A stretch of 22,319 nt of DNA from a virus, in the IMG/VR virus record IMGVR_UViG_3300045988_130630; one strand, 5' to 3'. Position 1 is the first letter of the stretch. The number at the start of each line of letters is the position of its first letter. The notes under the pieces are model-generated. The model worked only from the letters and a program-made list of their open reading frames with translations, was not told the origin of the DNA and ran no database searches. A program made the position numbers and the translations under genes. Of this stretch, positions 394-16,947 are shown in pieces.

Positions 394-467
394 GGTGACT
401 GGCGAAGATTTGAACTCGCGACCTTCTGAGCCACAATCAGATGCTCTACCAACTAAGCTACAGCCAC
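394..467 (-). tRNA. tRNA-His (anticodon GTG)
   Basis: Hand-folded cloverleaf: acceptor GTGGCTG/CAGTCAC, D-arm GCTT-AGTTGGTA-GAGC, anticodon arm TCTGA-TTGTGGC-TCAGA, C73; T-stem has a 1-nt bulge. Confidence 0.7.
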
Positions 468-468
468 A

Positions 469-556
469 TGGTGCTTTTGGTGAGACTCGAACTCACATGA
501 ACTTTATGCCCACTAGATTCTTAGTCTAGCATGTATACCAATTCCATCACAAAAGC
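469..556 (-). tRNA. tRNA-Leu, class II (anticodon AAG), CCA encoded
   Basis: Acceptor GCTTTTG/CAAAAGC, 3-bp D-stem, anticodon arm CTAGA-CTAAGAA-TCTAG, 16-nt variable arm, T-arm GTGAG-TTCGAGT-CTCAC. Confidence 0.65.
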
Positions 557-578
557 ATTTTCTTATTTTCATATATTT

Positions 579-607
579 ATTATATAATATTTTTTTTATA
601 AAGTCAA
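579..607 (-). promoter_or_regulatory. Sigma70-type promoter TTGACT-N17-TATAAT, member of the repeated 45-bp promoter family, upstream of the tRNA-Leu/His pair
   Basis: -35 as rc of 602-607, -10 as rc of 579-584, spacer exactly 17. Confidence 0.7.
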
Positions 608-644
608 AAGGGCCGATGTAAAGTATATTCACTTTACATCGGCC
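598..644 (-). terminator. Rho-independent terminator after the AAA+ ATPase gene
   Basis: Perfect inverted repeat ggccgatgtaaagt/actttacatcggcc (611-644), followed on minus by CTTTTGACTTTAT. Confidence 0.65.
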
Positions 645-650
645 GTCGCG

Positions 651-1790
651 TTAATAAAGATATTGTTCAAGAGTGTTTGCGACCTTAGTTAAAACAACAG
701 ACTTAATTACGCGCTCATTTTTAGCCTTTTCAATAGCTTCCTTACGCTTTTCAGCATCAGTAATCGTCCAAAAGTCATCAGGATCAATGTAAACTTCAAC
801 CTTTTTCGGATCAGCTGTAATCATACCCTTTTCAATCTTAATCGAATCAGGAGTCAAGGCATAACGAATAGTCTTACTATCTGAGGCATAACCATCATAC
901 CATCTTTGATGATTGGTATTAGGATTGTTAAACAAATTAACTGAAGCACCATAGGTATTATATACATCACCATTTACCGTAGTAATAGTGATATTGAAAC
1001 GAACATTGGAAGTCTGAGAGATATTAAGGTCTTCAAGAGTTTCTGCCACACCATAACCCTGATTAAGTTCAAAAGCAATCGCTCGAAGATAATCATAAGT
1101 CATATTAACAGTGCGAGAAAAATTCACAATATCCTTAATACCATCTGCGTATTTAGGTTTAACTTTATCAGTCAAATACTCAACGATCTCTTCCTCAGTT
1201 GGGAAAGTAATCTTAAAATGATAATGGAAACGACCAGGTCTATTCAAAAGATAAGTGCTAAGTCGATCAACTTCATTACAAGTAATGATAAAAAGCTTCT
1301 TACCATTATCAAGACCATCAAAAAGAGAAAGCATTTCTTCCTGCGGAGAGGGACCCGCATGGTCGTCAGAGTTATTAGAGAAATTCTTTTCAAACTCATC
1401 AAAAATAATTACGACTTCTTGCTCGATACTGGAAATAAAATCTGCGATACCAGGCATATAAGTATTAGCCAAAAGGACAGGATATCCGTTTTCAATAGCG
1501 TGATGAGAAAGAATACGAGCAAACAATGACTTACCAATACCCTTCTGACCACTTAAAATAACACCAAGATTACGGTCTGAATACTTAAAAGAATTAAGCA
1601 CCTTATTGACTTTAACTTCGTGATTACCATAAATTTTTTCCTCATTGACCGCAAGATCTGGACGAGAAGAAAGATAAAAACCTGCCATCTTACTAAAGCA
1701 GACTTCAAAAGACATAAGCGGAAGTCGCTTATAAGTCTTAACGTCCTCGCCATAAATCTGATAGCGAGAACCAGCGTTTACAATATTCAT
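651..1790 (-). CDS. AAA+ family ATPase
   Basis: 379-aa ORF; Walker A GQKGIGKS, Walker B VVIIFDEFE, sensor-2-like LNRPGRFHYHF; RBS AAGAGGA; TAA stop. Confidence 0.9.
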   Translation of the reverse strand: MNIVNAGSRYQIYGEDVKTYKRLPLMSFEVCFSKMAGFYLSSRPDLAVNEEKIYGNHEVKVNKVLNSFKYSDRNLGVILSGQKGIGKSLFARILSHHAIENGYPVLLANTYMPGIADFISSIEQEVVIIFDEFEKNFSNNSDDHAGPSPQEEMLSLFDGLDNGKKLFIITCNEVDRLSTYLLNRPGRFHYHFKITFPTEEEIVEYLTDKVKPKYADGIKDIVNFSRTVNMTYDYLRAIAFELNQGYGVAETLEDLNISQTSNVRFNITITTVNGDVYNTYGASVNLFNNPNTNHQRWYDGYASDSKTIRYALTPDSIKIEKGMITADPKKVEVYIDPDDFWTITDAEKRKEAIEKAKNERVIKSVVLTKVANTLEQYLY

Positions 1791-1817
1791 ACTTAATCCT
1801 CTTAATTTAAAATTTAA

Positions 1818-1908
1818 TGGCGAAGGAGAGAGGATTCGAACCTCCGGGCCCCAAATGAGGCCAACACCTTAGCAGGGTGCCGCATTCAACCAGCTCTGCC
1901 ACTCCTTC
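1818..1908 (-). tRNA. tRNA-Ser (anticodon GCT), class II, CCA encoded
   Basis: Acceptor GAAGGAG/CTCCTTC, anticodon loop CTGCTAA, long variable arm, T-arm GGAGG-TTCGAAT-CCTCT. Confidence 0.75.
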
Positions 1909-2000
1909 ATAATATATAAATAGAATAATTTACTGCTTAAACAGATGATATCCTCGTTTAAGCCATACCACACCCTCACCCAACACCTCAATTATTCTAT

Positions 2001-2237
2001 TTATTTACACCTATATATAATTAGCTTAGGCTTAATACTATATCCACAATAACTACGCCAAGTGCGATAATTACTAAAAATATAATATTTTCTATCAGGT
2101 TTAATATTACCAAATAAATTTAAAACTCTCAATCCTTGCTTATAATGAGAAGTTTTATTATTCACTTGGTAATTGGCCCAATCAAGAATTTCTTGACCGC
2201 TAAAACAAGGATTTTTATAACTTAAAATATTTTTCAT
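2001..2237 (-). CDS. Hypothetical small protein (78 aa)
   Basis: ORF with strong RBS AGGAGG 7 nt upstream; TAA stop. Confidence 0.55.
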   Translation of the reverse strand: MKNILSYKNPCFSGQEILDWANYQVNNKTSHYKQGLRVLNLFGNIKPDRKYYIFSNYRTWRSYCGYSIKPKLIIYRCK

Positions 2238-2313
2238 ATTCTACCTCCTCTGCTTTTCTGGACTTGGAACCAGCCTATGGTAGCATTAGGTAGGCGACCG
2301 CACTTATCGTTCG

Positions 2314-2379
2314 CTAGGACAAAACTCGCGCTCATCGCCAAAGATCAAATCATCGACATCTTTAAACATATCAGACAAT
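2314..2379 (-). CDS. Candidate 21-aa micro-ORF (MFKDVDDLIFGDEREFCPSER), leader-peptide-like
   Basis: ATG 9 nt downstream of AAAAAAGGAGG; TAA stop; sits ahead of a structured, tRNA-T-arm-like region at 2263-2313. Confidence 0.3.
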
Positions 2380-2646
2380 CCTCCTTTTTTATTTATTTTT
2401 ATGAAACAAAATAGAGAGTAGAAAAACAATTCATTTCTATGGAAGTGAAAGAAAACAACAATCTATATATCAAACGAAAGGGGAAATCAAACAGAAAGAT
2501 AAGTAAGAAAATGAACTAGATGTAAAAGACTCTCTCTATTGTATAGTCTTTTGTTTCTATATATTTAAATATATAGAAGAGTAGCCTTTCTAACAGGCAT
2601 CCCAACAGCCTCGAGCAGCAAAGAGGTTCCTCATTTGTTGGTCTTT

Positions 2647-2722
2647 TGGTGGGCGGAGACAGAATCGAACTGCCGACGCTAGGATCTTCAATCCTACGCT
2701 CTACCAGCTGAGCTATCCGCCC
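2647..2722 (-). tRNA. tRNA-Phe (anticodon GAA), CCA encoded
   Basis: GGGCGGA/TCCGCCC acceptor, GCTC-AGCTGGTA-GAGC D-arm, loop TTGAAGA, T-arm GGCAG-TTCGATT-CTGTC. Confidence 0.85.
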
Positions 2723-2936
2723 ATATTATTTATATTGCTACGATTCCCGATTCTCCACGTAGTCATTCTTCCTTTAAAACTGACTAAAAGAATGTGATAT
2801 TTTATTTATCGTACTACATCAACAATATAAATAGAACAAGACGCTATAAACAATCTTAAGCATATGTATTTTGTACATTGATGTTTTAAAGTTTGCTGTT
2901 AGCGTCTTTGTTATTCAAAAAGAAAGGAAAGATAAA

Positions 2937-3140
2937 TTATGCGTTCGCAGGTTCCGCGTTCTTTGGTCTGCGGAACTTTACATAACGCTCACCATCATAT
3001 CGGGACATCCAAATGATTGTGCCATCCTTAAAATGGAAATCATAAGTAAAATCCTTATCCTGTTCATCAACCTGATGGCAAAAGCCCTTACCGTACTTCT
3101 TAGAATAAACCTTATCGCCGGGCTTAAACTTAAACTTCAT
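2937..3140 (-). CDS. Hypothetical small protein (67 aa)
   Basis: ORF with RBS AAGGAG; TAA stop. Confidence 0.5.
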   Translation of the reverse strand: MKFKFKPGDKVYSKKYGKGFCHQVDEQDKDFTYDFHFKDGTIIWMSRYDGERYVKFRRPKNAEPANA

Positions 3141-3185
3141 TTAGATATCTCCTTTTGGATTATTTTAATTTACAAGACACAAATG

Positions 3186-3257
3186 AAATATTTGTTGGAA
3201 TTGAACCAACTACAATTTGTTTAACAGACAAATACTCTACCAATGAGTTAAAATACT
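3186..3257 (-). tRNA. tRNA-Asn (anticodon GTT), no CCA encoded
   Basis: Acceptor AGTATTT/AAATATT (one G-U pair), D-arm ACTC-ATTGGTA-GAGT, anticodon arm TTTGT-CTGTTAA-ACAAA, T-arm GTTGG-TTCAATT-CCAAC. Confidence 0.75.
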
Positions 3258-3338
3258 TTCAATAGAAAATGATTGCTGTGTGTGCCTTTATTACTGTGAT
3301 ACCTCTTAAAAGAGGGCTTACGGCGTTACGCCTAATGT

Positions 3339-4118
3339 TTATATGTTTTTCCATTCATCATCAGTGTATAAATTTATAATTTTTTTTGTATTAGGTAAAT
3401 TATAAGAAATACACCATTTTCTAATGGAATTATCACTTACATGATATATATTCGCGATAGAAGTAAAACTTTTATTACGAATCAATTTTTTTAATTCATC
3501 ACGAGAAGGTCTTTCAATTTTTCGATGTTCTTTAGCAGAACATTTCTAACATTTTTGACCTTTTCCGCTCCACTCTCCACCACATATAGGACAAACTTTT
3601 TTTAAAAGTTTTTTCTCTTCTTCTGGTTTATTTTTATCAAAACGAGAATAATGTAAAGGATAATTTAATTTTTCATTAAACCAAGTTCTTCCAACATTTA
3701 TATCTCTAATAGTATCTTTACTAACTTTATATTTTTTAGCTAATTCCGAATGATTAACTACACCTAACTTATCATTAATTAAAATATTTTGAATATCTTG
3801 AACTTCCTAATAATTTAATTTTTGATAAATTACGCGATAATCTCCACCTATTGTCTAATTATACTCTGGTTTATAATAATCAATCCAATAAATTTCTCTA
3901 CTATTTAGATTATCAATTTCACATTCTTCTAACACTTCAAATATAAAATTAGAAACACCATATTTTCTGAAACTTTGATATAAGGGATAATTATAGCTTT
4001 TACTCTTTTCATCTTGGGAACTATATATATGATTTTCCCAACGTTCTGCTATATTTCTTGACTATCCAATATAACAATGATTATTTATTTTATTAGTAAT
4101 TTTATAAATTCCTATCAT
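3339..4118 (-). CDS. GIY-YIG free-standing homing endonuclease carrying 4 in-frame TAG codons (at 4062, 3855, 3807, 3546)
   Basis: RBS AAGGAG + ATG at 4118; N-terminus GIYKITNKINNHCYIG-TAG-SRNIAERWENH matches the GIY-YIG motif; C-terminal CPICGG...KC-TAG-KC zinc finger; single coherent frame ending in TAA at 3339. Confidence 0.8.
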
Positions 4119-4201
4119 ATTACCATCTCCTTACACTATAATTAAAATTTTATTTAAGATAATTATAATTTTTCGACCTCGAAAGTATTTAGGTGATGAT
4201 A

Positions 4202-4274
4202 TGGTTGCGGTCGGGCGATTCGAACGCCGTTTTTGGCTTATGAGGCCAACGAGCTACCTTTGCTCCACCCCCGC
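4202..4274 (-). tRNA. tRNA with anticodon CAT (Met or Ile2), CCA encoded
   Basis: D-arm GAGC-AAAGGTA-GCTC, anticodon arm TTGGC-CTCATAA-GCCAA, T-loop TTCGAAT; acceptor stem has mismatches. Confidence 0.6.
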
Positions 4275-4276
4275 AA

Positions 4277-4352
4277 TGGTCGGTCAAATTAGAATCGAAC
4301 TAATATCCCTTGTCTTATGAGAACAATGCTCTGCCAATTAAGCTATTGACCG
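4277..4352 (-). tRNA. tRNA with anticodon CAT (Met or Ile2), CCA encoded
   Basis: Acceptor CGGTCAA/TTGACCG, D-arm GCTT-AATTGGCA-GAGC, anticodon arm TTGTT-CTCATAA-GACAA, T-arm ATTAG-TTCGATT-CTAAT. Confidence 0.8.
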
Positions 4353-4512
4353 AAAATGGGATAGATATAATATTCGCGACCATTATATCTATTGGACTTT
4401 CTAACCCATCGTCCCAAAATTCTTAATAGACCTCATCAAATGGCCAACTTTTGTAGAGGCTTTTGTGCGACCACCTGCGCACTTACATAGACATAAGAAT
4501 GATGCCAACGTA

Positions 4513-4590
4513 TGGCGACCCAGGCGGGGCTTGAACCCGCGGTCTTAGCCGTGACAGGGCTACGTGATATTCCAACTTCACTACTGGGCC
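4513..4590 (-). tRNA. tRNA-Asp (anticodon GTC), CCA encoded
   Basis: Acceptor GGCCCAG/CTGGGTC, D-stem GTGA/TCAC, anticodon arm TAGCC-CTGTCAC-GGCTA, T-arm GCGGG-TTCAAGC-CCCGC. Confidence 0.8.
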
Positions 4591-4593
4591 ATA

Positions 4594-4671
4594 TGGTACT
4601 CCTGGTGGGATTCGAACCCAACGACTCTAGCGTGAAAGGCTAGTGACTTAAGCCCACTTGTCGACAGGAGC
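4594..4671 (-). tRNA. tRNA-Glu (anticodon TTC), CCA encoded
   Basis: Acceptor GCTCCTG/CAGGAGT (G-U at pair 1-72), 3-bp D-stem with long D-loop, anticodon arm CTAGC-CTTTCAC-GCTAG, T-loop TTCGAAT. Confidence 0.65.
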
Positions 4672-4739
4672 ATGTATATTACTTTTTGTTAAAGAAGAAG
4701 TATAACTCCTCCAATTATTGTTTAACTAATTAAATTAGA

Positions 4740-4816
4740 TGGTGGCCTCGGCCAGAATCGAACTGACATTATTAGATTGAGAGTCTAATTTCCTAATCCT
4801 TTTAGAAGACGAGGTC
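4740..4816 (-). tRNA. tRNA with anticodon CTC (Glu-type), CCA encoded
   Basis: Acceptor GACCTCG/CGAGGCC (one mismatch), anticodon arm TTAGA-CTCTCAA-TCTAA, T-arm GTCAG-TTCGATT-CTGGC. Confidence 0.6.
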
Positions 4817-4820
4817 ATAT

Positions 4821-5069
4821 TTAAGCACATCTATCATAATCTTGATTTTTGTGCTTTTGTTTTCGCTTAAATGAGCCTTTACCTTTCTTCGCAGGAACTT
4901 TAAATCCTCTGCGCCGAAACAATTGAAGATATTCATTAAGTTCTTCTTTGTTCTTTTTCATATAACTTTTATTCACGGTATTCATCCTCATCTTCATAAA
5001 GGGAAAGATCCTGATAAGCAGCATATTCATCACTCTGAATCTCGCAAGCATAGCTTTCATAGTAATCAT
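4821..5069 (-). CDS. Hypothetical small basic protein (82 aa, K/R-rich C-terminus)
   Basis: ORF immediately downstream of promoter copy 5111-5139; weak RBS. Confidence 0.4.
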   Translation of the reverse strand: MITMKAMLARFRVMNMLLIRIFPFMKMRMNTVNKSYMKKNKEELNEYLQLFRRRGFKVPAKKGKGSFKRKQKHKNQDYDRCA

Positions 5070-5110
5070 TATACATAATTTAAATCTTCTTTTCTTAACT
5101 TTCTATAAAT

Positions 5111-5139
5111 ATTATATTATATTTTTTATAAAATGTCAA
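5111..5139 (-). promoter_or_regulatory. Sigma70-type promoter TTGACA-N17-TATAAT (repeated promoter family)
   Basis: -35 rc of 5134-5139, -10 rc of 5111-5116. Confidence 0.7.
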
Positions 5140-5256
5140 AAGATTAAAAGACCAACCAAAAAGCGATATTTGTTAACGATGGTCGCCACTCCACCGCCGT
5201 CAATATTCATAAACACTTACCATTTCTACACTAACCTACTAATTAAAGGAGGTGAC

Positions 5257-5344
5257 TGGTGCTTCGAGAGAGACTTGAACTCTCACCATCCATTCGGATA
5301 ATCGGGTTTGAGCCGATCGCGTCTGCCAATTCCGCCATCAAAGC
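5257..5344 (-). tRNA. tRNA-Leu, class II (anticodon CAA), CCA encoded
   Basis: Acceptor GCTTTGA/TCGAAGC, 3-bp D-stem, anticodon arm ATCGG-CTCAAAC-CCGAT, variable-arm hairpin ATCC-GAAT-GGAT, T-arm GAGAG-TTCAAGT-CTCTC. Confidence 0.75.
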
Positions 5345-5354
5345 ATAACTAAGA

Positions 5355-5479
5355 GGATTTTTAAGAAGAACCCTCAAAACTTCTTTCTAATCATCTAATT
5401 GGATTTTTAAGAAGAACCCTCAAAACTTCTTTCTAATCTAATGGAAGTTTTAAGAAGATCTTCCAACTTCTTTCTAATC
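5355..5479. repeat. Three tandem copies of a 46-bp unit, each holding a hairpin AAGAAG-N12-CTTCTT; third copy degenerate
   Basis: Direct repeats at 5355-5392, 5401-5438 and 5443-5479. Confidence 0.7.
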
Positions 5480-5887
5480 TAAATCGCACTTTAGGGCGGC
5501 CGTCCCTCCGCGGCATCACGGTAAATATACTATAATTTTTTATCCAAAAAAAGGTTATAAGCCAAAAAGGGATAATTATTTAAGATATAATTATCAAGAC
5601 TACGCTAACTGCTCAAATTTTCTCTTCTTAGTGGGAAAAACTTTCTTAGCGCTGAAACCAAAATCACTATTAGCATTTTGTATATATATTATCTTATTGT
5701 ATATAAGTTTCATTAATATACCTTATCTATTATATCATTTAGTATATTGTATTAAGTTTTAATTAATAAGATAATATTTCTGGCTGCTTTTATCACCAAT
5801 CATATAATTGGTTATATTGGGCAATGCTCCCAAACTTGCGGTTTACTTAACCGCCGTGCTTACACTTTACACCATATAACCATATAA

Positions 5888-5966
5888 TGGTGGACCTCGT
5901 GAGAATCGAACTCACCTGATTTTCTGTGTGCAAGACAGACGACCACGCCATGCAGTCCCGAAGCCC
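5888..5966 (-). tRNA. tRNA-Cys (anticodon GCA), CCA encoded; atypical D-arm and a 7-nt variable region
   Basis: Anticodon arm TCTGT-CTTGCAC-ACAGA, T-arm GTGAG-TTCGATT-CTCAC, acceptor GGGCTTC/GAGGTCC with two G-U pairs. Confidence 0.55.
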
Positions 5967-6053
5967 GGAATGCGACTTATTTATGTATAGATGGAGTCGC
6001 CAACCACCTGCGTTCAAAGTCCGCAAGCCTTCAACGCATTCCCAGGGAGGGGT

Positions 6054-6130
6054 TGGTGCTGGAGAAAGGACTCGAACCTTCAGATTAATGATCCTAAATC
6101 ATTCGTCTATGCCAATTCGACTACACCAGC
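6054..6130 (-). tRNA. tRNA with anticodon 5'-UAG-3' (reads CUA, Leu-type) but class I architecture with a 5-nt variable loop; CCA encoded
   Basis: Acceptor GCTGGTG/CTCCAGC (one U-U mismatch), 3-bp D-stem GTC/GAC, anticodon arm AATGA-TTTAGGA-TCATT with G37, variable AATCT, T-arm GAAGG-TTCGAGT-CCTTT. Confidence 0.6.
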
Positions 6131-6149
6131 AAATAAAGAGTTTTATAAC

Positions 6150-6265
6150 CCACATCGCGAAGATTCGAACTTCGTCAACCGTTAGGACTCGAACCAACTT
6201 TTACTCTTTTGGATTCCCAGAACCCATAGCCTTGATTAATGTGAGTATAGCCACTACTTCACAAT
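6150..6265 (-). other. tRNA-like remnants: two T-arm-like hairpins with no pairing 5' acceptor strand
   Basis: The hairpins are CGAAG-TTCGAAT-CTTCG and GTTGG-TTCGAGT-CC(T)TAAC; no standard cloverleaf closes either one. Confidence 0.35.
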
Positions 6266-6370
6266 AAGTTTTACTTCGCTTCTTTATATTTAGTCGGGCG
6301 TTTTCCGCAAGCCACATATTCTTTCGACCAGTGGTAGTTTAAACTTATAAAATCCGTGTTAACGCCCCAA

Positions 6371-6447
6371 TGGCGGGAGAGATAGGATTCGAACCTATGA
6401 CATCTTGTTTAACAGACAAGCGCTCTAACCAACTGAGCTACACTCCC
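6371..6447 (-). tRNA. tRNA-Asn (anticodon GTT), second copy, CCA encoded
   Basis: Acceptor GGGAGTG/CTCTCCC, D-arm GCTC-AGTTGGTTA-GAGC, anticodon arm CTTGT-CTGTTAA-ACAAG, T-arm ATAGG-TTCGAAT-CCTAT. Confidence 0.8.
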
Positions 6448-6487
6448 ATAAAAGAAGGACTTTTTAAAATCCTTACTTTATATATTT

Positions 6488-6516
6488 ATTATATTATATT
6501 TTTTTTAAAAAATCAA
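6488..6516 (-). promoter_or_regulatory. Sigma70-type promoter TTGATT-N17-TATAAT (promoter family)
   Basis: -35 rc of 6511-6516, -10 rc of 6488-6493. Confidence 0.6.
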
Positions 6517-6574
6517 CTTTTCTCTTTTACCCAAGTTTTTTTATTTTCTTTTTCTTTCTTCATCTTATATAAAT

Positions 6575-6603
6575 ATTATATAATATTTTTTATAAAATGT
6601 CAA
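6575..6603 (-). promoter_or_regulatory. Sigma70-type promoter TTGACA-N17-TATAAT (promoter family)
   Basis: -35 rc of 6598-6603, -10 rc of 6575-6580; the -35 hexamer contains the TGA stop of the gene at 6600-6782. Confidence 0.7.
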
Positions 6604-6782
6604 TAAGGTCTTTGAATTGGCATTAAATCATCTTCTGAAAGAAGCCACTTTTCACCATGTTCATCAAGGACTTCAATCTGATAATTTAATACTCGAATAA
6701 CAGTACATTTAAGATACTGTCTCCGATAACAACGACCGCGATAAGGGACAAAACAATAAGAATTACCAACTTCAATATTCAT
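6600..6782 (-). CDS. Hypothetical small protein (60 aa)
   Basis: RBS AAGGAG; promoter copy upstream at 6817-6845; TGA stop. Confidence 0.55.
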   Translation of the reverse strand: MNIEVGNSYCFVPYRGRCYRRQYLKCTVIRVLNYQIEVLDEHGEKWLLSEDDLMPIQRPY

Positions 6783-6816
6783 TATTTATTTTCTCCTTTC
6801 TCAACTTTCTATATAT

Positions 6817-6845
6817 ATTATATTATATATTTTTAATAAAATCAA
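6817..6845 (-). promoter_or_regulatory. Sigma70-type promoter TTGATT-N17-TATAAT (promoter family)
   Basis: -35 rc of 6840-6845, -10 rc of 6817-6822. Confidence 0.6.
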
Positions 6846-6873
6846 AAAAGTTCTTTTTGTTTAAAATATTAAA

Positions 6874-6956
6874 TGGCACCAGGGGTACGAGTCGAACGCA
6901 TTACCACGAGATTTGGAGTCACGCCCCAGTCCCTCCGGGATTAAGGTTCCCCTGAT
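6874..6956 (-). tRNA. tRNA-Trp-like (anticodon CCA) with about 7 extra nt in the 5' half; CCA encoded
   Basis: 3' half is canonical: anticodon arm CGTGA-CTCCAAA-TCTCG, T-arm ATGCG-TTCGACT-CGTAC, acceptor 3' CCCTGGT-G-CCA. The 5' acceptor ATCAGGG pairs, but the D region is too long. Confidence 0.4.
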
Positions 6957-15354: not shown

Positions 15355-16947
15355 AGAAGTTCTTTGATTTGGGTTAGTGCCATTAACCCAAGAAACAAAT
15401 TCCTTTTCAGTGATGTCAAAAAGGTCTCTACCCTTTTTAGTAAGAGTTTCCCCATCAACATAATAATTAGAGCGCCAACCGTCTCTTTCTTCTTCAATTT
15501 CACCAGTGAAGAAGGTTTTTACTTTTTTATCTCCACAACAATCCCAACAAATATCCGCATAGAATCCAACTGGCTTCTTTTGGAATCGAAGGCGGATTTG
15601 CTTCATATCATCATAATCTTTACGAACTTCACAACAAGGACAAACTTCTGTGCTTTCGTCATAACAATAAGCACAATAAGTTTTTCCATCGACATTATAA
15701 GTGTCATCGACATAAACAATATCGCCACACTTATCGCACTTTACTGCACCCGAGCAACTCGGACAGATAGTCATTTCTGCGTTATTCTCTCTATCATCGA
15801 AGAGAGAATCATCAAGAAGCTCTCCGCAACACATACACTCAGATTCACCCGAGTAGTTAAGATCAATATTTTCATCCGTAGGGATTTTGGTGGAAACATA
15901 AGCATTATGATCTGAGTAGATATCGTTATACATAAAATTGGTATCAAGATTGAAGTAAATACTTCTATCAAGCTCACCAATAATGTTATTGCTATAATTA
16001 TGAATCTGATTCAAATACTTGGTATAAGGGCCAAAGCCAAGATTCTGTTCAGCGAGCTTCTTGATCCAAGCAAGACAAATACTTTCAAGGTTATCATTAC
16101 AATAAGGATACCCTTTAATGCCAAGGATAAGGCTTTCATCTACAATGAAAAGTTCACGCCAGCGCTTGCTATTCCACATCACAGGCTTACCAACCTTATA
16201 CCAAATTTCCATGTCCTTATCAGATTTAAGATAAGCCTCAAGGATAATGGGAGAATTCATCATTTCAACGGTTCCCTGACGATATTCGCCACCACCATTC
16301 TGCCATCTCATACAAGAATCCCAACCGCAATTATTATCACTCATAGTGATATAATCAAGAGGGTGAACAGAAAGACAGAGTTCACCAGAAATATTTTTCT
16401 GATTAAGGAACTGAGAATGAGCGATACGGAACTTTTCATAAACATCGCGGTCAATCTCCAAAATATCACTCAGCTTACCAAGCATCTTACTAAGCTTCAT
16501 ACCCTTATTAATCATAAGAGTTTTATTATTGTAAGTGAATTTAAAAGGTTCACCATCATAGATGTTAGACATTAAAGGTTCAACATCCAAAAGATTTGCC
16601 AAATTAAAATACTGAGTATTAGAGATGGTTGTTTTAAGATAAAGATCTCTTACCTTATTATTAAAGGTATCTCGGAATTCATATCCATCACCATTTCTAC
16701 CGAAATAATCATAAAAATCCTCACTCATCTCTTCATAAGAACGAGAATAACTTACCTTACGAGAAATGATAAGATTATCTCCCAACATCTTATAAAGATT
16801 CTGCTTATTATAAGCCCAAAAGCGGAGAATGTAGTCGAGAGATGCCTTCATATCGGAGCTATCTCCGCCAAGACCCGCAAAATTGCGGATATACCCTTCA
16901 ATCTTTTCGCAATCTTCTTTGGAAAGGAGCTCAAATAAATTAGCCAT
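15343..16947 (-). CDS. Large hypothetical protein (534 aa), paralog of 11403-12857 (SVHPLD core, multi-CxxC C-terminus)
   Basis: Shared blocks: GELCLSVHPLDY~GTLCFSVHPLDF, GEYRQG~GEYRAG, MWNSKRWRE~LWNSKKWRM; the stop overlaps the promoter copy. Confidence 0.85.
   Translation of the reverse strand: MANLFELLSKEDCEKIEGYIRNFAGLGGDSSDMKASLDYILRFWAYNKQNLYKMLGDNLIISRKVSYSRSYEEMSEDFYDYFGRNGDGYEFRDTFNNKVRDLYLKTTISNTQYFNLANLLDVEPLMSNIYDGEPFKFTYNNKTLMINKGMKLSKMLGKLSDILEIDRDVYEKFRIAHSQFLNQKNISGELCLSVHPLDYITMSDNNCGWDSCMRWQNGGGEYRQGTVEMMNSPIILEAYLKSDKDMEIWYKVGKPVMWNSKRWRELFIVDESLILGIKGYPYCNDNLESICLAWIKKLAEQNLGFGPYTKYLNQIHNYSNNIIGELDRSIYFNLDTNFMYNDIYSDHNAYVSTKIPTDENIDLNYSGESECMCCGELLDDSLFDDRENNAEMTICPSCSGAVKCDKCGDIVYVDDTYNVDGKTYCAYCYDESTEVCPCCEVRKDYDDMKQIRLRFQKKPVGFYADICWDCCGDKKVKTFFTGEIEEERDGWRSNYYVDGETLTKKGRDLFDITEKEFVSWVNGTNPNQRTSLIF

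What the first reader, a model, noticed from the sequence alone, without database searches (positions are those of the whole stretch)
6054..6130. Class I tRNA with a UAG anticodon (Leu-type anticodon, non-Leu architecture)
The fold gives an anticodon loop TTTAGGA, that is U33, anticodon UAG and G37, which is appropriate for a CUN reader. The variable loop is only 5 nt and the D-stem only 3 bp, whereas bacterial tRNA-Leu is always class II.

There are three readings. It may be an unusual Leu isoacceptor. It may be a tRNA charged with another amino acid that reads CUA. Or the hand fold may be wrong. It is not the amber suppressor, which would need a CUA anticodon.
Basis: seen in the sequence. 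Interest (0 to 1): 0.6.

Follow-up and report, generated by a model that had tools for sequence, protein, structure and literature searches.

The report
Phage leucine tRNA lacking long arm
This is a real phage tRNA gene that reads the leucine codon CUA and has lost the long extra arm normally found on bacterial leucine tRNAs while keeping their other hallmarks; the type is rare in bacteria but turns out to be common in phages, so it is interesting but not new.

Summary
Window 6054-6130 (minus strand) is a 77-nt tRNA gene (ARAGORN; Rfam 59.8 bits) with anticodon UAG, G37, a 5-nt variable loop, A73 and an encoded CCA.

The reading "non-Leu architecture" is only half right. The 3-bp D stem and 11-nt D loop (GAAUUGGCAUA), G1-C2-U3, U48 and A73 match the phage's two class II tRNA-Leu genes and cellular tRNA-Leu(UAG). 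That D-arm motif occurred in 0 of 270 class I non-Leu tRNAs examined.

- **Conservation:** relatives keep the gene, with compensatory changes in every stem.
- **Equivalence:** one relative has an 85-nt class II tRNA-Leu(UAG) swapped into the same slot between conserved flanks.
- **Codon meaning:** CUA positions in clade genes exchange mainly with other Leu codons (23 of 28 alternative codon types) and never with Thr, Ser or Ala.

The best reading is a type I (arm-less) tRNA-Leu(UAG), charged by host LeuRS and decoding CUA/CUG.

Similar genes occur in many phage contigs, in bacterial tRNA arrays and in Felix O1-like coliphages, where they are annotated tRNA-Leu. Type I tRNA-Leu is published for Streptomyces coelicolor, and a short-variable-loop tRNA-Leu(TAG) is noted in Mycobacterium arrays. 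Charging was not tested, and the reason for losing the arm is unknown.

The parts
6054..6130 (-). Whole tRNA gene, 77 nt including the encoded CCA. It is a class I (type I) tRNA with anticodon UAG.
   Evidence: ARAGORN; Rfam RF00005 at 59.8 bits. Identical or nearly identical in relatives L039-L043 and L047, and diverged with compensatory changes in L050.
6124..6130 (-). Acceptor stem 5' strand, GCUGGUG (positions 1-7). It starts G1-C2-U3, like the window's class II tRNA-Leu genes.
   Evidence: All seven acceptor pairs show changes on both sides across the family.
6105..6121 (-). D arm: 3-bp stem GUC/GAC enclosing the 11-nt loop GAAUUGGCAUA (G13, A14, A15, U16, U17, G18, G19 and following). 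This is the Leu-type D arm.
   Evidence: Same architecture as tRNA-Leu(AAG) at 469-556 and tRNA-Leu(CAA) at 5257-5344 and as cellular class II tRNA-Leu(UAG). The motif is absent from 270 of 270 class I non-Leu tRNAs. L041 carries the compensatory change U11-A24 to C11-G24.
6087..6103 (-). Anticodon arm: stem AAUGA/UCAUU and loop UUUAGGA.
   Evidence: All five stem pairs covary.
6094..6096 (-). Anticodon UAG, which reads CUA and, by U34 wobble, CUG. It is followed by G37, so G36-G37 is the usual context for m1G37.
   Evidence: The + strand reads cta at 6094-6096. The m1G37 statement rests on general knowledge, not on a test here.
6082..6086 (-). Variable loop AAUCU, 5 nt, ending in U48, the partner of A15 in the Levitt pair.
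   Evidence: U48 is invariant in 20 of 20 class I UAG tRNAs although the search pattern did not constrain it.
6065..6081 (-). T arm: stem GAAGG/CCUUU and loop UUCGAGU.
6058..6064 (-). Acceptor stem 3' strand, CUCCAGC, with the U6.U67 mismatch.
   Evidence: In L050 this position is a U6-A67 pair.
6054..6057 (-). Discriminator A73 plus the encoded CCA.
   Evidence: A73 is invariant in 20 of 20 family members although the search pattern did not constrain it.
6575..6603 (-). Candidate promoter TTGACA-17-TATAAT (12 of 12 matches), upstream of tRNA-Asn(GUU) and this tRNA.
   Evidence: Consensus scan. This is a pattern match only; expression was not shown.
6371..6447 (-). tRNA-Asn(GUU), lying between the candidate promoter and the target. 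It is probably co-transcribed with the target.
   Evidence: 74.7 bits. Co-transcription is an inference.
469..556 (-). Comparator: class II tRNA-Leu(AAG), 88 nt, with D arm UG AUG GAAUUGGUAUA CAU.
5257..5344 (-). Comparator: class II tRNA-Leu(CAA), 88 nt, with D arm UG GCG GAAUUGGCAGA CGC.

Best explanation
The gene encodes a functional phage tRNA-Leu(UAG) of the rare type I (class I) architecture. It looks like a leucine tRNA whose long variable arm has been reduced to a 5-nt loop. The parts that bacterial LeuRS is known to read are all kept: A73, A14, the A15:U48 Levitt pair, and G18-G19 in a D loop of tRNA-Leu length on a 3-bp D stem.

Proposed steps:
1. The tRNA is transcribed within the minus-strand tRNA cluster, probably from the consensus promoter at 6603-6575 (inferred).
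2. It is processed to a 77-nt tRNA with its encoded CCA (inferred).
3. Host LeuRS charges it. LeuRS ignores the anticodon, and in E. coli it does not need the variable arm (inferred from identity elements and literature).
4. G37 is methylated next to G36 (inferred from general knowledge).
5. It decodes CUA and, by wobble, CUG as leucine. That CUA means Leu in this clade is shown indirectly.

It is functionally interchangeable with an ordinary class II tRNA-Leu(UAG).
For: 1. **Real tRNA, unambiguous register**.
2. **Leu-type D arm.** The D arm matches the co-resident class II tRNA-Leu genes and cellular tRNA-Leu(UAG): the target loop GAAUUGGCAUA against GAAUUGGCAGA. The motif U8-R9, 3-bp stem, N-AAYUGGYANA was found in 0 of 270 class I and 1 of 86 class II non-Leu tRNAs. 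It was found in 28 of 48 class II and 24 of 33 class I tRNAs with Leu anticodons.
3. **U48 and A73.** Both are invariant in 20 of 20 class I UAG tRNAs although the search pattern did not constrain them. Of 13 class I tRNAs with other Leu anticodons, which were not selected by the pattern, 13 have U48 and 11 have A73.
4. **Published identity rules.** E. coli leucine identity rests on A73, A15-U48, G18G19 and A20a, and not on the anticodon or the variable arm. Variants lacking the variable arm remain chargeable (review PMC9976931).
5. **Purifying selection.**
   - The gene is identical in five relatives.
   - L041 has a compensatory D-stem change.
   - L050, whose neighbouring ATPase is only 52% identical, has compensatory changes in the acceptor, anticodon and T stems (its D stem carries the same C11-G24 pair as L041) and the same D loop, U48, G37 and A73.
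   - Family-wide, 19 of 20 pairs covary.
6. **Cassette swap.** L049 carries an 85-nt class II tRNA-Leu(UAG) in exactly this slot. The flanks are conserved up to the first and last base of the gene.
7. **Related phages.** Enterococcus phage EF24C has a class II tRNA-Leu(UAG) upstream of the homologous ATPase.
8. **CUA behaves as Leu.**
   - Of 22 codon columns containing CUA in clade genes, 23 of 28 alternative codon types are Leu codons (TTA 14, TTG 4, CTT 3, CTC 1, CTG 1). The rest are Phe 2, Met 1, Gln 1 and Arg 1. None is Thr, Ser or Ala.
   - CTA/TTA exchange occurs in 64% of CTA columns, like the synonymous CTG/TTG exchange (50%).
   - The non-synonymous CTT/TTT and CTC/TTC exchanges occur in only 7% and 9% of columns.
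9. **Other anticodon-blind identities are excluded.** There is no G3:U70 (Ala), and no long arm or G73 (Ser).
Against: - No aminoacylation or expression data exist, and the host is unknown.
- E. coli LeuRS did not charge the S. coelicolor type I tRNA-Leu(CAA). The authors describe ScoLeuRS as the only prokaryotic LeuRS known to charge both types (PMC6614811). Acceptance of a type I tRNA-Leu by a given host LeuRS therefore cannot be assumed.
- CUA is rare in the window's credible genes: 7 of about 4,300 codons, against 152 CUU. Codon demand does not obviously explain the gene.
- The acceptor stem has a U6.U67 mismatch.
- By overall sequence, the closest non-orthologous tRNAs are phage tRNA-Thr(UGU) genes, through the acceptor and anticodon stems. 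Descent from a class II tRNA-Leu is therefore not demonstrated.
- The codon test shows what CUA means in the clade, not which tRNA delivers the leucine.
Confidence: 0.8

Rival explanations
1. Counter-defence variant. The tRNA is still a tRNA-Leu, but the loss of the long arm is adaptive. It would make the phage's CUA/CUG decoder invisible to host or rival factors that recognise class II tRNAs through the variable arm, such as MenT/AbiEii-type nucleotidyltransferase toxins or arm-dependent nucleases, while LeuRS recognition is kept.
For: [quoted passage not shown] - Class I Leu-anticodon tRNAs recur in many unrelated phage contigs. They sometimes sit beside a class II tRNA-Leu with the same anticodon, as in L006.
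- In cellular genomes they were found only in dense tRNA arrays.
Against: - The same phage keeps long-armed tRNA-Leu(AAG), tRNA-Leu(CAA) and tRNA-Ser(GCU).
- Its relatives also carry a 90-nt tRNA-Tyr.
- A close relative (L049) replaces the class I gene with a class II gene with no other visible change, which suggests near-neutral interchange.
- No toxin that targets the tRNA-Leu arm is known for this unidentified host.
Confidence: 0.12
2. Sense-codon recoding. The tRNA is charged with another amino acid, for example Thr as for the yeast mitochondrial tRNA-Thr(UAG), and inserts it at CUA.
For: - The best BLAST matches of the gene in cultured phages are tRNA-Thr(UGU) genes at 74% identity.
- The acceptor stem GCUGGUG and the G1-C72 and C2-G71 pairs resemble tRNA-Thr.
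- The class I shape itself fits this reading.
Against: - CUA columns never exchange with Thr, Ser or Ala codons, and they behave like synonymous Leu sites.
- The anticodon lacks G35 and U36, which bacterial ThrRS relies on (general knowledge).
- The anticodon loop is the normal 7 nt, not the 8 nt of the yeast mitochondrial case.
- G37 is present rather than the A37 typical of tRNA-Thr.
- The D arm, U48 and A73 are Leu-type.
- A bona fide class II tRNA-Leu(UAG) substitutes for it in L049.
Confidence: 0.03
3. Decaying or non-functional tRNA relic in a fast-turnover tRNA cluster.
For: - The cluster contains doubtful calls and T-arm-like relics.
- tRNA cassettes are gained, lost and swapped among relatives.
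- The acceptor stem has a U.U mismatch.
- CUA is rarely used.
Against: - The Rfam score is high at 59.8 bits.
- A73 and CCA are kept.
- Compensatory substitutions are kept out to a relative whose ATPase is only 52% identical.
- Covariation in the wider family is very strong.
Confidence: 0.04

Closest known systems
Canonical class II tRNA-Leu(UAG) of bacteria and phages, for example T5 tRNAL1(UAG) at 85 nt, Enterococcus phage EF24C at 85 nt, and relative L049 at 85 nt
   Same: - Anticodon UAG and A73.
- A 3-bp D stem with an 11-nt D loop carrying A14, A15 and G18G19.
- U at the last variable position.
- The same genomic slot (L049), or the same neighbourhood upstream of the homologous ATPase (EF24C).

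Sources.
   Different: The long variable arm of 12-16 nt is replaced by the 5-nt loop AAUCU. Position 9 is A rather than the G seen in the window's class II tRNA-Leu genes.
Type I tRNA-Leu(CAA) of Streptomyces coelicolor (Fan et al. 2019, PMC6614811)
   Same: [quoted passage not shown] In that organism it is shown to be leucylated by the single LeuRS.
   Different: - It is chromosomal rather than phage-borne.
- Its anticodon is CAA.
- Its variable loop ACAGC ends in C48, whereas the phage tRNA keeps the E. coli-type U48 and A15.
- In S. coelicolor A73 is not an identity element, and E. coli LeuRS does not charge that tRNA.
tRNA-Leu(TAG) with a short variable loop in Mycobacterium tRNA gene clusters (Behra et al. 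2019, PMC6582537)
   Same: The same anticodon, the same loss of the long arm, and a location in a dense tRNA cluster of a kind linked to mobile elements.
   Different: It is described in one sentence, with no identity or function analysis. The hosts are actinobacteria, and its sequence was not compared here.
Class I tRNA-Leu(UAG) and tRNA-Leu(CAA) of Felix O1-like coliphages, for example Escherichia phage wV8, NC_012749
   Same: A 77-nt tRNA with anticodon UAG, a 3-bp D stem, an 11-nt loop CAACUGGUAGA, U48, A73 and CCA. GenBank annotates it tRNA-Leu.
   Different: It has A37 instead of G37, different stems and a Gram-negative host. No direct sequence homology was detected with the window gene.
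Animal mitochondrial type I tRNA-Leu
   Same: A Leu tRNA without a long arm, recognised mainly through A73 and A14 (PMC9976931).
   Different: It works in an organellar system with its own LeuRS and has a relaxed structure. ScoLeuRS does not charge it.
Yeast mitochondrial tRNA-Thr(UAG), which reassigns CUN to Thr
   Same: A class I tRNA with anticodon UAG (from general knowledge).
   Different: The anticodon loop here is 7 nt rather than 8, and CUA behaves as Leu here.

Membership tests
tRNA (Rfam RF00005) | Cloverleaf matching the covariance model above the gathering score | tested here: met
   59.8 bits against a gathering score of 29, over the full-length model. ARAGORN agrees.
Bacterial tRNA-Leu (canonical, class II) | Long variable arm of more than 10 nt with a stem | tested here: not met
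   The variable loop is 5 nt, AAUCU.
Bacterial tRNA-Leu (canonical, class II) | Discriminator A73 | tested here: met
   A at 6057. It is invariant in 20 of 20 related class I UAG tRNAs.
Bacterial tRNA-Leu (canonical, class II) | Core elements read by E. coli-type LeuRS: A14, the A15:U48 Levitt pair, and G18G19 placed in a long D loop on a 3-bp D stem | tested here: met
   The D arm is GUC-GAAUUGGCAUA-GAC and U48 is present. The motif is specific to Leu-anticodon tRNAs in 437 unique tRNAs. The list of elements comes from PMC9976931.
Bacterial tRNA-Leu (canonical, class II) | Leu anticodon, with the cognate codon meaning Leu in the genome | tested here: met
   The anticodon is UAG. CUA columns exchange with Leu codons in 23 of 28 alternative codon types.
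Bacterial tRNA-Leu (any type) | Leucylation by LeuRS | not testable with these tools
   This needs a biochemical assay. Published results point both ways.
Type I tRNA-Leu (S. coelicolor CAA; Mycobacterium array TAG; mitochondrial) | Leu anticodon combined with a 4-5-nt variable loop | tested here: met
Yeast-mitochondrial-type tRNA-Thr(UAG) (CUN recoding) | Enlarged 8-nt anticodon loop | tested here: not met
   The loop UUUAGGA is 7 nt.
Yeast-mitochondrial-type tRNA-Thr(UAG) (CUN recoding) | CUN positions correspond to Thr in homologues | tested here: not met
   None of the 28 alternative codon types at CUA columns is Thr.
tRNA-Ala and tRNA-Ser (the other identities that ignore the anticodon) | G3:U70 for Ala; a long variable arm with G73 for Ser | tested here: not met
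   U3-A70, a 5-nt variable loop and A73.
Amber suppressor tRNA | Anticodon CUA | tested here: not met
   The anticodon is UAG. Separate tRNA(CUA) genes exist in relatives, outside the window.

The most novel reading that the evidence does not exclude
Phage type I tRNA-Leu genes would be a widespread, selected counter-measure. Deleting the long variable arm while keeping the LeuRS-read core would give phages leucine decoders that escape host toxins or nucleases which recognise class II tRNAs by that arm, such as AbiEii/MenT-like systems. It would also imply that many bacterial LeuRS enzymes, including those of E. coli and Bacillota, can charge arm-less tRNA-Leu, contrary to the published view that only the Streptomyces enzyme does.
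Probability: 0.12. Interest if true: 0.75.

Novelty: new member of a known kind. Interest (0 to 1): 0.4.

Why it matters
Textbooks state that bacterial tRNA-Leu is class II. The one biochemical study of a bacterial type I tRNA-Leu concluded that the Streptomyces LeuRS is exceptional in charging it.

This gene and the many similar genes found here occur in diverse phage contigs, in bacterial tRNA arrays and in Felix O1-like coliphages. They show that arm-less tRNAs with Leu anticodons and a conserved Leu-type core are common in mobile tRNA clusters. That raises two testable questions:
- Do ordinary host LeuRS enzymes charge them?
- Does losing the arm give phages any advantage, such as escape from factors that read the arm?

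For annotation, the practical point is that such genes should be called tRNA-Leu and should not be taken as evidence of CUA recoding.

Tried and rejected
- **Close DNA relatives in cultured phages.** Megablast of window 5000-7800 against cultured phages found nothing. A more sensitive blastn of the tRNA found only tRNA-Thr(UGU) genes at about 74% identity. I judged that to be stem-level resemblance rather than shared identity, given G37, the D arm and the codon test.
- **Ranking by overall identity.** Ranking 309 tRNAs by identity with the variable region and anticodon removed did not separate isotypes. tRNA-Thr, tRNA-Pro and tRNA-Leu were interleaved, so I switched to a D-arm motif test.
- **Codon test inside the window alone.** This had too little power, with 20 CTA codons of which 13 lie in ORFs 8581-8865 and 9195-9440. 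Variation by codon position showed those two, and 2001-2237, to be doubtful as genes. I excluded them and pooled codon columns across relatives instead.
- **Scan of cellular genomes.** The search pattern mostly hit non-tRNA sequence (104 of 121 matches), and some hits were class II tRNAs with a chance GTTC in the arm. It therefore gives presence, not frequency.
- **Literature.** Searches on phage tRNA combined with variable arm, and surveys of tRNA arrays and viral tRNA clusters, contained no discussion of class I tRNA-Leu.
- **Phage T5.** I checked it as a possible precedent, but its tRNA-Leu(UAG) is class II at 85 nt.
- **Early versus late CUA usage.** It could not be done meaningfully with 7 credible CUA codons.

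Full report
**Context**

The window is phage DNA with 35% G+C, and its credible genes all lie on the minus strand. PHROG and Pfam matches include an ATPase, peptidase-like proteins and DUF5052. The ATPase at 651-1790 is about 43% identical to those of Herelleviridae such as Enterococcus phage EF24C and Bacillus phage Deep Blue, and 48% identical to a sequence from a human faecal phage contig.

Positions 394-7615 hold a dense tRNA cluster. ARAGORN makes 16 calls there, and Rfam confirms 14 of them at the gathering score.

**Checking the observation**

ARAGORN reports tRNA-Leu(tag) at 6054-6130 on the minus strand. Rfam's tRNA model matches 6057-6130 end to end at 59.8 bits, with E = 7e-11.

Both programs give the same layout: GCUGGUG UA GUC GAAUUGGCAUA GAC G AAUGA UUUAGGA UCAUU AAUCU GAAGG UUCGAGU CCUUU CUCCAGC A CCA.

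**What the architecture says**

The key comparison is with the phage's own class II leucine tRNAs.

| tRNA | Position | D arm |
|---|---|---|
| tRNA-Leu(AAG), class II | 469-556 | UG AUG GAAUUGGUAUA CAU |
| tRNA-Leu(CAA), class II | 5257-5344 | UG GCG GAAUUGGCAGA CGC |
| Target, class I | 6054-6130 | UA GUC GAAUUGGCAUA GAC |

All three begin G1-C2-U3 and end A73-CCA. Cellular class II tRNA-Leu(UAG) genes picked up in a genome scan have the same D arm (UG GCG GAAUUGGCAGA CGC) and a YUUAGGA anticodon loop.

Only the variable region departs from the canonical form.

These were 437 unique sequences with a 3-nt anticodon (an earlier count is).

| tRNA group | With the motif U8-R9, 3-bp stem, N-AAYUGGYANA |
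|---|---|
| Class I, non-Leu anticodon | 0 of 270 |
| Class II, non-Leu anticodon | 1 of 86 |
| Class II, Leu anticodon | 28 of 48 |
| Class I, Leu anticodon | 24 of 33 |

Many of the class I UAG examples had been fished with a pattern containing part of this motif. The negative set, the window clade, Phass-1 and the class I tRNAs with other Leu anticodons were not selected that way.

Two features the pattern did not constrain are invariant in an alignment of 20 class I UAG tRNAs. These are U48, the partner of A15, and A73.

Published work on E. coli names exactly these elements as the leucine identity set: A73, the A15-U48 pair, G18G19 and A20a. It reports that neither the anticodon nor the long arm is required, and that truncated tRNA-Leu lacking the arm is still charged (review PMC9976931).

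**Conservation and interchangeability**

Searching IMG/VR with the ATPase and with a 534-aa protein recovered about a dozen close relatives.
- The class I UAG gene is identical in L039, L040, L042, L043 and L047.
- L041 has a compensatory D-stem change, U11-A24 to C11-G24.
- L050, whose ATPase is only 52% identical, has a diverged copy. It has compensatory changes in the acceptor, anticodon and T stems, and its D stem carries the same C11-G24 pair as L041. The D loop, U48, G37 and A73 are unchanged.

In L049 the same slot, between tRNA-Asn(GUU) and tRNA-Ala(UGC), holds an unrelated 85-nt class II tRNA-Leu(UAG). The flanks are nearly identical right up to the first base of the tRNA and resume just downstream of its CCA end. 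This is a precise cassette swap of one tRNA-Leu(UAG) for another.

Enterococcus phage EF24C carries a class II tRNA-Leu(UAG) upstream of the homologous ATPase.

Across the 20-member class I UAG alignment, the cloverleaf with a 3-bp D stem and a 4-5-nt variable loop pairs in 98.5% of cells. Nineteen of 20 pairs change on both sides, and no shuffle or slid control comes close.

**What CUA means in this phage**

CUA is rare in the window. There are 20 CTA codons in ORFs of at least 60 aa, against 152 CTT. Thirteen of the 20 lie in ORFs 8581-8865 and 9195-9440. Their pattern of variation by codon position shows they are not credible in that frame, and ORF 2001-2237 is also doubtful.

I therefore aligned the credible window genes codon by codon with the relatives and collected every column in which any genome has CTA.
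- There are 22 such columns.
- Among the 28 alternative codon types in them, 23 are Leu codons: TTA 14, TTG 4, CTT 3, CTC 1 and CTG 1.
- The other five are Phe 2, Met 1, Gln 1 and Arg 1. None is Thr, Ser or Ala.

An internal control supports this. CTA/TTA exchange occurs in 64% of CTA columns, similar to the synonymous CTG/TTG exchange at 50%. The non-synonymous CTT/TTT and CTC/TTC exchanges occur in only 7% and 9% of columns.

CUA therefore encodes leucine in this clade. A tRNA(UAG) carrying another amino acid would be harmful.

**How it most likely works**

A perfect TTGACA-17-TATAAT match lies at 6603-6575 on the minus strand, upstream of tRNA-Asn(GUU) and the target. This is a pattern match only.

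I infer that the tRNA is transcribed with its neighbours and matured with its encoded CCA. I further infer that host LeuRS leucylates it through A73 and the D-loop/variable-loop core, that it is methylated at G37, and that it reads CUA and CUG.

What is shown:
- The gene and its fold.
- The Leu-type core.
- Purifying selection on the gene.
- Interchange with a class II tRNA-Leu(UAG).
- CUA meaning Leu.

What is inferred: expression, charging and modification.

**Main caveat**

Fan et al. 2019 showed that the S. coelicolor LeuRS charges a chromosomal type I tRNA-Leu(CAA). E. coli LeuRS did not charge it, and the authors regard the Streptomyces enzyme as the only prokaryotic LeuRS known to accept both types (PMC6614811).

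That tRNA has the variable loop ACAGC, ending in C48. The phage tRNAs keep A15 and U48, which may be why they can work elsewhere. This is untested.

**How common and how new**

One pattern scan of IMG/VR matched 36 stretches. ARAGORN shows many 73-77-nt tRNAs there with Leu anticodons: UAG, and also CAG, CAA, UAA and AAG in the same loci. Some lie beside a class II tRNA-Leu with the same anticodon.

In cellular genomes the same pattern mostly hit non-tRNA sequence. Genuine class I UAG tRNAs were found only in loci packed with tRNAs, for example 28, 19 and 15 tRNAs within 8 kb. These are tRNA arrays or phage-like regions.

Among cultured phages:
- Phass-1 has such a gene.
- Felix O1-like coliphages such as wV8 carry 77-nt tRNA-Leu(UAG) and 78-nt tRNA-Leu(CAA) genes with the same D-arm type. 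GenBank annotates them tRNA-Leu.
- T5 has the ordinary 85-nt form.

In the literature I found two precedents. One is a single sentence noting a short-variable-loop tRNA-Leu(TAG) in Mycobacterium tRNA clusters (PMC6582537). The other is the Streptomyces study. Surveys of tRNA arrays and viral tRNA clusters do not mention the feature.

The window gene is therefore a new member of a known but little-studied kind.

**Why the arm is lost**

This remains open. A neutral explanation fits the L049 swap and the retention of long-armed tRNA-Leu(AAG), tRNA-Leu(CAA) and tRNA-Ser in the same phage. Under it, LeuRS does not need the arm, and phage tRNA genes turn over quickly.

An adaptive explanation is escape from factors that read the arm. 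It is made plausible by MenT3 and by preliminary AbiEii data. Nothing here supports it directly, and I give it about 12%.

**Verdict**

The best interpretation is an arm-less (type I) tRNA-Leu(UAG), with confidence 0.8. CUA recoding is not supported. Interest is moderate at 0.4.

Noticed in passing
window 469-556 (-): tRNA-Leu(AAG) has an unmodified-type A34 anticodon, which is unusual for bacteria. It matches the dominant Leu codon of the window's genes: CUU accounts for 152 of 340 Leu codons.
   Followed up: partly
window 7545-7615 (-), with a promoter-like site at 7686-7658 (-): A tRNA-like gene (Rfam 46.2 bits) has a 6-nt anticodon loop, CUUCAA, so ARAGORN reports a 2-nt anticodon 'tc' ('tt' in most relatives). 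It sits just downstream of a perfect TTGACA-17-TATAAT match.
   Followed up: no
window 5808-5882 and 5888-5966 (-): ARAGORN's tRNA-Thr(agt), with an 8-bp acceptor stem and an odd T loop, and its tRNA-Ala(tgc), at 79 nt with G3.U70, a 3-bp D stem and a 7-nt variable loop, do not reach the Rfam gathering score. The Thr(agt) call is absent from several relatives.
   Followed up: no
window 6131-6230 (-): The spacer just upstream of the target contains T-arm-like hairpins (GUUGG-UUCGAGU-CCUAAC and CGAAG-UUCGAAU-CUUCG) but no detectable tRNA. They may be relics of decayed tRNA genes. The spacer is conserved in relatives.
   Followed up: partly
window 9195-9440, 8581-8865 and 2001-2237 (-): These listed ORFs are doubtful as genes. 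Variation among relatives falls on codon position 2 for 9195-9440 (6/37/6) and shows no third-position excess for the other two. The first two also hold 13 of the window's 20 CTA codons.
   Followed up: partly
window 1818-1908 (-); relatives L039-L049: tRNA cassettes turn over within conserved flanks. Three unrelated versions of tRNA-Ser(GCU), at 91, 88 and 87 nt, occupy this slot in different relatives. In L039 the 5' half of the gene is replaced. The tRNA content of the cluster differs between otherwise 90-99% identical phages.
   Followed up: partly
relatives, outside the window: L039:15957-16046 and 16620-16709; L044:6473; L047:16911: Beyond the window's left end, close relatives carry a 90-nt class II tRNA(CUA) amber suppressor near a 90-nt tRNA-Tyr(GUA). 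Some carry a 72-73-nt tRNA(CUA) instead (L044, L046, L048, L049), and L047 and L049 carry an 80-nt tRNA(UCA). This suggests stop-codon suppression or recoding in this phage group.
   Followed up: no
window 3185-3257 and 6371-6447 (-): There are two tRNA-Asn(GUU) genes of very different composition, 27% and 48% G+C. The second shares the U6.U67 acceptor mismatch with the target.
   Followed up: no
L195 (Escherichia phage wV8, NC_012749) 1494-1570 and 2072-2149: Felix O1-like coliphages carry class I tRNA-Leu(UAG) and tRNA-Leu(CAA) with a Leu-type D arm. This is notable because E. coli LeuRS was reported not to charge the Streptomyces type I tRNA-Leu.
   Followed up: partly
alignment A3 (class I UAG tRNAs from L007, L015, L019, L029, L050, L150, L167, L172, L175): Nine of the 20 class I tRNA-Leu(UAG) sequences have a G1.U72 wobble pair at the top of the acceptor stem. 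The window gene has G1-C72.
   Followed up: no
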